Shown here: piece after piece, positions 52,236 through 52,310 of the stretch
Numbering within the stretch: position 1 is the stretch's first letter
Layout: the number at the start of each line of letters is the position of its first letter
IMG/VR virus record: IMGVR_UViG_3300020577_006835
Span: 4,588-68,587 of that record
Length of the DNA stretch: 64,000 nt
Direction: 5' to 3' (one strand)
From: a virus
Lineage: Duplodnaviria > Heunggongvirae > Uroviricota > Caudoviricetes
Position numbers and translations under genes: made by a program
The notes under the pieces: model-generated
Told to the model about the DNA's origin: nothing
The model's input: only the letters and a program-made list of their open reading frames with translations
The model's database searches: none

Positions 52236-52310
52236 GCGCGGGGTAGCTGCCTGGGTGTAGCGGGCGACTTCAAATCGCTGTCACTGGGAGTTCGATTCTC
52301 CCCCCGCGCT
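52236..52310 (+). tRNA. tRNA with UCA anticodon (opal-reading), short variable region, U73
   Basis: GCGCGGG(G)/(C)CCCGCGC, 5-bp D-stem GCTGC/GTAGC, GGCGA-CTTCAAA-TCGCT, T-loop TTCGATT. Confidence 0.85.

What the first reader, a model, noticed from the sequence alone, without database searches (positions are those of the whole stretch)
52236..52310. Opal (UCA-anticodon) tRNA with Gly-like identity elements and an unusual fold, in a genome that uses TGA as stop
Seen: the anticodon loop is CTTCAAA. There is no long variable arm and the discriminator is U. The acceptor begins G1-C72, C2-G71, G3-C70. The D-stem is 5 bp, and the acceptor/T stems can fold 7/5 or 8/4. Many genes here end in TGA. Known: bacterial tRNA-Sec has a long variable arm and G73, tRNA-Trp has G73, and U73 with G1:C72/C2:G71/G3:C70 are tRNA-Gly identity elements. 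Inference: a UGA suppressor, perhaps inserting Gly, used for timed or partial readthrough. One in-frame candidate is the 44654 ORF-TGA-GTG junction with the polymerase.
Basis: partly seen in the sequence, partly recalled or inferred. Interest (0 to 1): 0.72.

Follow-up and report, generated by a model that had tools for sequence, protein, structure and literature searches.

The report
Phage tRNA that unlocks its neighbouring gene
This phage's odd stop-codon-reading tRNA is real, but its likely job is not to change the genetic code: it seems to read one stop codon in a tiny leader next door, so that the ribosome runs into a known stalling peptide (RAPP) and switches on the next gene.

Summary
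The tRNA(UCA) at 52236-52310 is real. Three diverged alleles in related phages (69-78% identical) keep every stem by compensatory changes. All keep the loop CUUCAAA, U73 and G1-C72/C2-G71/G3-C70.

The phage uses TGA as its main stop (230 of 296 genes). I found no in-frame sense TGA, no readthrough signature and no backup stops. The proposed polymerase junction is not conserved.

The likely target lies 66 nt downstream. A phage promoter is followed by a mini-ORF ending in TGA, then the peptide R-A-P-P, a published ribosome-arrest motif. The RNA just after it pairs with the Shine-Dalgarno and start region of the next gene, a 141-aa protein of unknown function.

Across eight loci, homologues of that gene keep this layout:
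- The anticodon always matches the leader stop: UCA with TGA (4 loci), CUA with TAG (5).
- R-[A/G/P]-P-P is kept through synonymous codon changes.
- The spacing to the main AUG is 56-66 nt.

Best reading: a private suppressor tRNA gates an arrest-peptide switch. The inserted amino acid (Gly or Cys by U73) and the direction of regulation are inferred.

This scan's earlier notes describe similar cassettes on other DNA. I found no published natural example.

The parts
51809..52225 (+). 138-aa gene of unknown function (phrog_1540), ending 10 nt before the tRNA. It is the constant upstream neighbour in all UCA-type lineages.
   Evidence: Homologues in L002, L003, L027 and L028 are each followed by a tRNA(UCA). 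No Pfam hit and no fold match.
52236..52310 (+). tRNA with anticodon UCA, U73, short variable loop, long D stem and no encoded CCA. Proposed private opal suppressor.
52336..52361 (+). Phage promoter motif TTGACT-N15-GTGCTA. It starts the leader-plus-gene transcript.
   Evidence: 11 matches in the window, all on the + strand, 0.1 expected. The motif is conserved in L002.
52376..52402 (+). Mini-ORF MEQTMINC ending in TGA (52400-52402). This is the proposed target stop codon of the tRNA.
   Evidence: A matching-stop mini-ORF is present in all eight loci.
52406..52417 (+). Codons CGG GCA CCA CCG, encoding R-A-P-P, one codon after the TGA. Proposed ribosome-arrest motif, with the P site on 52412-52414 and the A site on 52415-52417.
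   Evidence: Motif function from PMC10951233 and PMC12992588. Chance control.
52417..52430 (+). 5' strand of the masking helix. It begins at the last base of the A-site Pro codon, inside the footprint of a ribosome stalled at RAPP.
52459..52490 (+). 3' partners of the masking structure. They cover the Shine-Dalgarno region (GGGGG), a small hairpin holding the AUG at 52475, and CUGCCGC in codons 4-6 of the main gene.
   Evidence: The same arrangement, with unrelated sequences, occurs in L032, L034, L035, L029 and L036.
52475..52900 (+). Gated gene. It encodes a 141-aa all-helical protein of unknown function, a member of a large uncharacterised family.
   Evidence: One search found 802 cluster representatives at E <= 0.001.

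Best explanation
The tRNA(UCA) is a functional, phage-encoded opal suppressor with essentially one intended target: the TGA that ends a mini-ORF at the 5' end of the next transcript.

Proposed mechanism:
1. A ribosome that terminates at this TGA leaves the leader folded, so the Shine-Dalgarno and AUG of the 141-aa gene stay masked.
2. A ribosome that reads the TGA with the phage tRNA goes on for two to eleven codons and meets R-A-P-P (R-G-P-P or R-P-P-P in relatives).
3. [quoted passage not shown]
4. The stalled ribosome covers the 5' strand of the masking helix, which frees the ribosome-binding site, and the gene is translated.

The tRNA and the leader thus form a two-input switch: the gene is made only when both its mRNA and the mature, charged tRNA are present.

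Shown here: the tRNA structure and its conservation, the anticodon/stop match, peptide-level conservation past the stop, and the constant geometry.

Inferred: that the tRNA is charged (Gly or Cys are the best guesses from U73), that stalling occurs, and that stalling activates rather than represses.
For: 1. Real tRNA. Three alleles are 69-78% identical and have compensatory changes in all four stems. Acceptor pairs 4:69 and 7:66 each show three different Watson-Crick types. The loop CUUCAAA and U73 are invariant.

2. Anticodon and leader stop co-vary.
- UCA with TGA: window, L003, L002, L027.
- CUA with TAG: L032, L034, L035, L029, L036.
- TAG ends only 4 of 22 called genes in the amber-type loci, so background stop usage does not explain the match.

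3. R-[A/G/P]-P-P follows the stop within 1-10 codons in every locus. Its codons vary synonymously: Arg is CGG, CGC, CGT, AGG or AGA, and the first Pro uses CCA, CCG, CCT or CCC. This shows selection on the peptide beyond the stop.

4. Chance is low. Only 0.18% of stops in the six frames of this genome are followed by the motif within 10 codons. It occurs once in 59,117 residues of predicted proteins.

5. RAPP and RGPP are the strongest known arrest motifs. [quoted passage not shown]

6. Geometry is constant. The A-site Pro codon lies 56-66 nt from the main AUG in seven loci. The helix 5' strand begins 0-12 nt after it and pairs with the SD and/or AUG, using unrelated sequences in different lineages.

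7. There is no other target. No in-frame sense TGA was found and there is no readthrough signature.
Against: - No expression, charging or stalling data exist. RNA-library contigs cover the locus but do not show transcription.
- The masking structure is supported by conserved pairing potential across lineages, not by a formal covariation test. Folding z-scores are modest, -1.3 and -2.25.
- Known RAPP peptides were tested with longer nascent chains. Here the chain at the stall is only 10-22 residues.
- The frame relation between leader and main gene varies. It is in frame in the window, L003, L034 and L029, and out of frame in L002, L027, L032, L035 and L036. In some lineages an N-terminally extended protein could therefore be the product instead.
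- Only eight loci were inspected, from a family with 802 cluster representatives.
- A suppressor would also act on the 230 genes that end in TGA. The genome shows no protection against that, so the tRNA must be weak or rare, or the cost is tolerated.
Confidence: 0.72

Rival explanations
1. General opal suppressor. The tRNA causes partial readthrough of many natural TGA stops, making extended or fused phage proteins such as the 97-aa ORF joined to the polymerase.
For: TGA ends 78% of genes, so many targets exist. Seven gene junctions have TGA followed in frame by the next gene within 0-3 codons. A cultured jumbo phage, Atu_ph07, also carries a tRNA(UCA) with abundant TGA stops (PMC6102473).
Against: - In-frame abutment after TGA is not enriched: 17 of 138 close junctions, and a gap of 3 nt is as common as 1 or 2.
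- Extensions do not look coding unless they are simply the next gene with its own start.
- The polymerase junction is absent in L003 and out of frame in L002.
- There are no backup TAA/TAG stops after TGA stops.
- This view does not explain why relatives switch to CUA together with a TAG leader.
Confidence: 0.1
2. The readthrough product itself is the point. The tRNA lets ribosomes translate from the mini-ORF into the main gene, giving an N-terminally extended isoform. R-A-P-P would then be only a linker or a pause.
For: In the window, L003, L034 and L029 the mini-ORF, the post-stop stretch and the main gene share one open frame.
Against: - In L002, L027, L032, L035 and L036 the leader is out of frame with the main gene.
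- L002 has a stop in the main frame 6 codons before its AUG and its own strong Shine-Dalgarno.
- In L029 R-G-P-P is followed at once by TAA.
Confidence: 0.08
3. Non-decoding tRNA-like RNA. It could be a Sec-tRNA mimic acting as a decoy for host factors such as SelA or SelB or for a tRNA-targeting defence, or it could be an RNase P processing signal at the operon's end.
For: All three alleles score best on the Rfam tRNA-Sec model (40.9, 51.9 and 37.2 bits). They have long D stems and lack U8, A14 and A21.
Against: - The anticodon loop is invariant while the body changes by about 30%.
- The Sec hallmarks are missing: no long variable arm and no G73.
- The 8-bp acceptor stem is impossible in the L027 allele.
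- The amber-type partners of the same module are ordinary 7/5 tRNAs with A73.
- The anticodon/stop match implies decoding.
Confidence: 0.07
4. Coincidence. The tRNA and the leader are unrelated neighbours, and the R-x-P-P codons are only the nucleotide anti-Shine-Dalgarno element.
For: Pro-Pro codons (CCN CCN) resemble an anti-SD sequence (CCUCC). In L032 and L034 the motif reads GCT CCT CC.
Against: - The Arg and Ala/Gly codons are not part of an anti-SD, yet the residues are kept through synonymous changes, including AGG/AGA versus CGN.
- In the window the Pro codons are CCA CCG, and the helix starts only at the last base of the motif.
- The stop type follows the anticodon in eight loci.
Confidence: 0.03

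Closest known systems
RAPP-type arrest-peptide leaders (ApdA, ApdP, ApcA; SecM with RAGP; Streptomyces RAPP/RGPP uORFs). Sources: PMC7897499, PMC10951233, PMC12992588.
   Same: A small upstream ORF carries R-A/G-P-P. The stalled ribosome sits on RNA that otherwise masks the ribosome-binding site of the next gene. RAPP and RGPP are the very variants found here.
   Different: In known cases the arrest motif lies inside an ordinary ORF, and release is controlled by secretion or another cellular signal. Here the motif lies behind a stop codon, so it is reached only if a dedicated suppressor tRNA reads that stop. The leader is very short, and the system is phage-borne.
Suppressor tRNAs of stop-codon-recoded phages (code 4 TGA=Trp, code 15 TAG=Gln; Borges et al., bioRxiv 10.1101/2021.08.26.457843).
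   Same: A phage-encoded tRNA with a UCA or CUA anticodon that depends on host synthetases. It is proposed to time gene expression.
   Different: Those phages are low in GC, depleted in the recoded stop, and carry many in-frame recoded stops in late genes. This phage is 63% GC, ends 78% of its genes in TGA and has no in-frame TGA in its genes.
tRNA-Sec and the Sec-like selC* tRNA-Cys(UCA) and allo-tRNAs (Mukai et al., PMC5389517; review PMC7609411).
   Same: UCA anticodon in the loop CUUCAAA, a long D stem with a small loop, a possible 8/4 acceptor/T arrangement, and U73 as in selC* tRNA-Cys. The best Rfam family is tRNA-Sec.
   Different: There is no long variable arm, which all of those have. 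There is no G73. The phage has no selA, selB or cysS partner. The 8/4 fold is not possible in one allele.
tRNA(UCA) of Agrobacterium jumbo phage Atu_ph07 (PMC6102473).
   Same: A lone UCA tRNA, set apart from the main tRNA clusters, in a jumbo phage whose genes commonly end in TGA. Its function is unexplained.
   Different: The Atu_ph07 tRNA is a canonical 7/5 tRNA with U8, A73 and an encoded CCA. I did not examine whether it has a matching leader.
Engineered amber-gated leader peptides (Liu, Qi, Yanofsky and Arkin 2011, as reviewed in PMC6412442).
   Same: A stop codon placed in a regulatory leader peptide makes a downstream gene depend on a suppressor tRNA.
   Different: That design is synthetic, uses the tna/trp leaders and acts on transcription. 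The locus here is natural and appears to act on translation initiation.
Cassettes noted earlier in this scan on other DNA (e1-1678675, e1-5428575, and the PTH2-linked e1-1863162, e1-1615425 and e1-1867400).
   Same: A suppressor-type tRNA sits next to a gene or leader that carries the matching early stop codon.
   Different: These are unchecked AI notes on other genomes. The gated protein here is not PTH2-like: there was no Pfam hit even at E <= 10. I did not compare sequences with those loci.

Membership tests
Canonical tRNA | Cloverleaf with four stems, kept by compensatory change; 7-nt anticodon loop with U33 | tested here: met
   ARAGORN call. Of 22 pairs against L002, 9 changed on both sides and none is broken. 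The same holds with a third allele, apart from a U-U at 27:43.
Canonical tRNA | Reaches the Rfam RF00005 gathering score; has the U8, A14 and A21 core | tested here: not met
   Not listed at the gathering threshold. Position 8 is G (A in the L027 allele), and the D loops lack A14 and A21.
tRNA-Sec (selC, RF01852) | Long variable arm and G73 for SerRS | tested here: not met
   The variable loop is 4-7 nt and the discriminator is U in all three alleles.
tRNA-Sec (selC, RF01852) | 8-bp acceptor stem; 6-bp D stem with a 4-nt loop | tested here: inconclusive
   An 8/4 fold is possible in the window and L002 alleles but impossible in L027 (A8 opposite C65). The D stem is 6 bp with a 4-nt loop in L002, 5 bp with a 6-nt loop in the window, and 5 bp plus a bulge with a 4-nt loop in L027.
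tRNA-Sec (selC, RF01852) | Reaches the Rfam gathering score of 47 bits | tested here: inconclusive
   L002 allele 51.9 bits (above). Window allele 40.9 and L027 allele 37.2 (both below).
tRNA-Sec (selC, RF01852) | Sec machinery (SelB-type GTPase) encoded alongside | tested here: not met
   No PF00009 match in the 208-kb phage genome. The host is unknown.
selC* tRNA-Cys(UCA) (Mukai 2017) | U73 with a UCA or GCA anticodon | tested here: met
selC* tRNA-Cys(UCA) (Mukai 2017) | Long V-arm; selB*/cysS* genes downstream | tested here: not met
   No V-arm. No CysRS or EF-type gene in the phage. The downstream gene is the 141-aa unknown.
Code-changing phage suppressor tRNA (code 4) | Many in-frame TGA codons in phage genes; TGA rare as a stop | tested here: not met
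   TGA ends 230 of 296 genes. The only TGAs with coding signal on both sides are 7 gene junctions, each followed by a start within 0-3 codons. The N-terminal scan was empty.
RAPP-type arrest-peptide leader | R-A-P-P or R-G-P-P near the end of a small ORF upstream of a same-strand gene | tested here: met
   RAPP in the window, L003, L032, L034 and L035. RGPP in L002, L027 and L029. RPPP in L036. The difference is that the motif lies behind a stop codon.
RAPP-type arrest-peptide leader | A stalled ribosome overlaps RNA that masks the downstream ribosome-binding site | tested here: met
   In predicted folds of seven loci the helix begins 0-12 nt after the A-site codon and covers the SD and/or AUG. 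This is prediction only.
RAPP-type arrest-peptide leader | Translation arrest shown experimentally | not testable with these tools
   Needs toeprinting, a cell-free translation assay or a reporter.
Suppressor-tRNA plus PTH2 module (earlier scan notes) | The gated gene is PTH2-like | tested here: not met
   No Pfam family at E <= 10 for three forms of the protein. No PDB sequence match. No fold match.
Matched suppressor-tRNA / stop-leader cassette (this report) | The anticodon is complementary to the stop that ends the mini-ORF | tested here: met
   All loci inspected match: UCA/TGA in four, CUA/TAG in five. Background TAG use is 4 of 22 genes.

The most novel reading that the evidence does not exclude
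Phages carry a widespread, modular and so far unpublished kind of translational switch. A private suppressor tRNA serves as the trans-acting key, and a stop codon placed in front of a RAPP-type arrest motif is the lock. The anticodon and the stop co-evolve (UCA/TGA or CUA/TAG). This would explain the 'orphan' suppressor tRNAs seen in standard-code phages. The gated 141-aa family, with about 800 clusters, would then be a protein whose synthesis must be tied to the state of the phage's tRNA supply, for example as a timer or as a sensor of tRNA-targeting host defence.
Probability: 0.55. Interest if true: 0.88.

Novelty: new variant of a known kind. Interest (0 to 1): 0.8.

Why it matters
Suppressor tRNAs in phages that keep the standard code, especially where the suppressed stop is the commonest one, have had no convincing explanation. 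This locus offers a concrete and testable one: the tRNA has a single cis-linked target.

It would also add a new kind of input, a dedicated tRNA, to arrest-peptide regulation. That field currently knows secretion, small molecules and antibiotics as inputs.

It also shows that nature uses the same logic as engineered amber-gated leaders. Matched tRNA/stop/arrest modules could serve as compact orthogonal gates.

Finally, it points to a large uncharacterised protein family whose expression phages control unusually tightly.

Tried and rejected
- **Polymerase junction (44654 ORF-TGA-GTG).** Rejected. The ORF is absent in L003 and out of frame in L002.
- **Genome-wide readthrough or recoding.** Extension scores, junction frames, backup stops, TGAs with coding signal on both sides, and an N-terminal/CxxU scan were all negative.
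- **Partner machinery in the phage.** No EF/SelB, CysRS, RF or class IIa synthetase domains.
- **Paralogy to the phage's other 35 tRNAs.** None stands out; identities are 52-67%.
- **Close DNA relatives.** None among cultured phages. Single-protein and pattern scans of viral contigs gave nothing. The metagenome scan returned only the L002 contig.
- **Bacterial-genome scan for a similar tRNA.** Six chance hits, none a tRNA.
- **BLAST of the tRNA against phages.** Only weak hits to ordinary Leu, Arg, Cys and Glu tRNAs.
- **Sequencing runs.** The locus is present in about 10 studies. A third strain has 15 differences in 1.1 kb and none in the tRNA, which is not significant. RNA-library contigs do not show transcription or RNA ends.
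- **Fold of the upstream 138-aa protein.** pLDDT 75, best Z 4.8, no assignment.
- **Fold of the gated 141-aa protein.** pLDDT 75, all helical, no PDB or Atlas match.
- **8/4 versus 7/5 fold.** Cannot be decided, and the L027 allele excludes 8/4.
- **Generic sigma-70 and terminator scan near the tRNA.** Nothing found.
- **Two contig look-ups.** P0045 and P0126 returned no DNA.

Full report
**Observation.** ARAGORN finds ten tRNAs in the window, one of them at 52236-52310 (+) with anticodon tca.
- The loop is CTTCAAA.
- The variable loop is 6-7 nt.
- The discriminator is T and no CCA is encoded.
- The acceptor starts G1-C72, C2-G71, G3-C70.
- The D stem is 5 bp.

Because C65 can pair with G49 or G8, the fold can be 7/5 or 8/4. 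The Rfam general tRNA model does not reach its gathering score here. The best family is tRNA-Sec at 40.9 bits, below its threshold of 47, with the variable arm deleted.

The window is part of a 208-kb, 62.7% GC virus record that is 93% complete and holds 36 tRNAs. A rough codon-usage gene model gives 296 genes, ending in TGA 230 times, TAG 46 times and TAA 20 times.

**Is the tRNA real and conserved?** The polymerase gene 4 kb upstream has two close relatives in public assemblies, and both contigs carry a tRNA(UCA) at the same place.
- L003 (polymerase 98% identical) has an identical tRNA.
- L002 (86% identical) has flanks that are 76-94% identical but a tRNA body only 69% identical.

Under an explicit cloverleaf segmentation, 22 stem pairs can be compared. 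Eleven are unchanged, nine changed on both sides with pairing kept, two switch between GU and GC, and none is broken.

A third allele (L027 and L028, where the upstream protein is only 57% identical) again lies directly after the homologous gene. With three alleles, acceptor pairs 4:69 and 7:66 each show three Watson-Crick types. The loop CUUCAAA, U73 and the first three acceptor pairs never change. Other tRNAs shared by the window and L002 are equally diverged (Thr-UGU 69%, Thr-GGU 72%). Fast tRNA turnover is therefore general in this lineage, and the UCA tRNA behaves like the bona fide ones.

All three alleles score best on the Rfam tRNA-Sec model, at 40.9, 51.9 and 37.2 bits. They have long D stems and lack U8, A14 and A21. 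However, none has the long variable arm or G73. The L027 allele has one nucleotide between the acceptor and D stems and cannot form an 8-bp acceptor. This is not a Sec tRNA and not one of the published Sec-like tRNAs, which all keep the long arm.

**The readthrough idea as first stated.**
- The 97-aa ORF before the polymerase is absent in L003, whose polymerase starts at the same residues and carries an intein elsewhere. In L002 the corresponding ORF is out of frame.
- In-frame abutment after TGA is not enriched. Most junctions are ATGA/GTGA overlaps, and a gap of 3 nt is no more frequent than 1 or 2.
- After a TGA stop the next in-frame stop is again TGA in 79% of cases. The next TAA or TAG is about 250 codons away, as in the control frames.
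- Only seven TGA codons in the genome have strong coding signal in the same frame on both sides, and each is followed by ATG or GTG within 0-3 codons.
- A scan for TGA close to N-termini or in CxxU contexts found nothing.
- The phage encodes no EF/SelB-type GTPase, CysRS, release factor or class IIa synthetase.

This phage does not recode TGA. That contrasts with the published picture, in which phage suppressors accompany low-GC genomes depleted in the recoded stop. One cultured jumbo phage, Atu_ph07, has an unexplained tRNA(UCA) amid abundant TGA stops. Its tRNA is a canonical 7/5 molecule with A73 and an encoded CCA.

**The target next door.** A phage promoter motif, TTGAC-N15-GTGCTA, occurs 11 times in the window, only on the + strand, against 0.1 expected. 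One copy lies at 52336-52361, just after the tRNA.

Fourteen nucleotides downstream there is an ATG (52376) opening the mini-ORF MEQTMINC, which ends in TGA (52400-52402). It is followed by V-R-A-P-P and then, 60 nt further on, the AUG of a conserved 141-aa gene.
- L002 has MIGDW-TGA-GHQ-RGPP.
- L027 has MISGC-TGA-V-RGPP.

I then searched for distant homologues of the 141-aa gene (41-46% identical). Every contig that returned DNA has a gene-free gap upstream that holds a tRNA with anticodon CUA. L029 needed a relaxed threshold because its tRNA has C33. In each of these the leader mini-ORF ends in TAG, not TGA, followed by RAPP or RGPP. A still more distant member at 48% GC (L036) has tRNA(CUA), a mini-ORF TTG-ACT-TAG and then R-P-P-P.

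In the amber-type loci TAG ends only 4 of 22 called genes. The match between anticodon and leader stop therefore does not reflect local stop usage.

**Is the stretch behind the stop translated?** The four motif residues are kept while their codons change. Arg is CGG, CGC, CGT, AGG or AGA. The first Pro uses all four CCN codons. The second residue is Ala (GCA, GCT, GCC) or Gly (GGA, GGC). This is selection on a peptide, not on an anti-Shine-Dalgarno nucleotide string.

In this GC-rich genome R-[AG]-P-P occurs at 1.15e-4 per codon position in the six frames. Only 0.18% of stops are followed by it within 10 codons. It occurs once in 59,117 residues of predicted proteins.

**What the motif does, from the literature.**
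- RAPP and RGPP are the strongest variants, work with short and varied N-terminal sequences, and are among the most avoided tetrapeptides in bacterial proteomes.
- They occur in small upstream ORFs of genes with diverse functions, including in Actinomycetota (PMC12992588).

**Geometry.** In seven loci the A-site Pro codon lies 56-66 nt before the main AUG. In each predicted fold the 5' strand of a helix begins 0-12 nt after that codon, which is within the reach of a stalled ribosome. Its 3' strand covers the Shine-Dalgarno and/or the AUG of the main gene. The sequences are unrelated between lineages. In the window the strand 52417-52430 pairs with 52459-52464 and 52483-52490, and the AUG sits in a small hairpin.

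The nascent chain at the stall would be 10-22 residues. Short mini-ORFs are compensated by longer post-stop spacers. The leader is in frame with the main gene in some loci and not in others, and L002 has a stop in the main frame just before its AUG. A fusion protein is therefore not the conserved outcome.

**Interpretation.** The best-supported reading is a two-part switch. Termination at the leader stop leaves the gene masked. Suppression by the phage's own tRNA sends the ribosome into the arrest motif, and the stalled ribosome unmasks the gene.

Two kinds of statement should be kept apart:
- Direct from sequence: the anticodon/stop match, the peptide-level conservation and the geometry.
- Inferred: charging, stalling and the direction of control.

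The inserted amino acid is open. U73 is shared in this phage by the Gly, Cys and Thr tRNAs, while Trp has G73. The acceptor pairs favour Gly, and C35-A36 favour Cys. For the switch any residue would do.

The gated protein is all helical, has no Pfam, PHROG, PDB or Atlas match and belongs to a family of 802 cluster representatives. Why a phage would tie this protein to a private tRNA is unknown. A timer, a leak-proof AND gate and a sensor of tRNA integrity are all possible.

**Novelty.** The parts are known: phage suppressor tRNAs, RAPP arrest leaders and engineered amber-gated leaders. A full-text search found no natural case that joins them. Earlier notes of this scan describe similar cassettes on other DNA. 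I treated them as leads and tested the idea independently on this family. The PTH2 identity reported for some of those cassettes does not hold here.

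Noticed in passing
window 22153-52361 (11 sites, e.g. 48474-48499, 52336-52361): A phage promoter-like motif, TTGAC(A)-N15-GTGCTA, occurs 11 times, all on the + strand, against 0.1 expected. Start codons often follow within about 11-14 nt, which suggests very short 5' leaders.
   Followed up: partly
L003:5876-10306 and L003:2739-4649: In the 98%-identical sister phage the UDG-PolA polymerase is 1476 aa instead of 1133, because a LAGLIDADG intein-like insertion sits in the UDG domain. 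The primase-like gene there also carries a LAGLIDADG domain.
   Followed up: partly
window 44654-44947: A 97-aa ORF with a weak match to the C-terminal part of T4 gp23-type capsid protein (Pfam E 7.7e-6; PHROG major head protein) sits before the polymerase. It is absent in L003.
   Followed up: partly
window 37942-38623 versus L002:2823-3056: Sister phages keep the order and anticodons of three tRNA-Thr genes, but two of the three bodies are only about 70% identical while the third is 97% identical. tRNA genes in this lineage turn over much faster than their flanks.
   Followed up: partly
whole genome G000 (e.g. window 56437-58380): Stop choice goes with junction style. TGA-ending genes mostly overlap the next start (ATGA/GTGA, 51 of 220 pairs). 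TAG-ending genes often abut it directly (TAGATG/TAGGTG, 6 of 44 pairs).
   Followed up: no
L027:1160-1260: About 90 nt downstream of the tRNA(UCA) in this lineage there is a second T-arm plus acceptor 3' strand, ending in the same CTCTTTCTG tail. It may be a partial duplicate or an undetected tRNA-like gene.
   Followed up: no
window 51313-51870: An ORF with a Cys-X5-Arg phosphatase signature lies upstream of the 138-aa gene. L002's homologue hits Pfam DSPc. My crude gene model had wrongly called the opposite strand here.
   Followed up: no
L025, L026 and the P0045 contig: More distant homologues of the 138-aa upstream protein (phrog_1540) have no tRNA beside them. They sit among NAD-salvage and RNA-repair genes: NAMPT, NUDIX, T4 Rnl1-type ligase, a kinase/phosphatase and Thg1.
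   Followed up: no
L009:313-355 (Desulfobia MAG contig): This looks like the 3' half of a UCA-anticodon tRNA (anticodon arm, T arm, acceptor 3' strand, U73) with no matching 5' half. It may be an integration-site remnant.
   Followed up: no
window about 89807 and 62758, minus strand: The genome has two other places with the pattern mini-ORF, stop, then RAPP within 10 codons. Both are on the gene-poor minus strand and are probably chance.
   Followed up: no
P0061, P0068, P0077, P0141: Some members of the gated-protein family are annotated with N-terminal extensions of 18-88 residues. These could be fused leaders or different gene calls.
   Followed up: no
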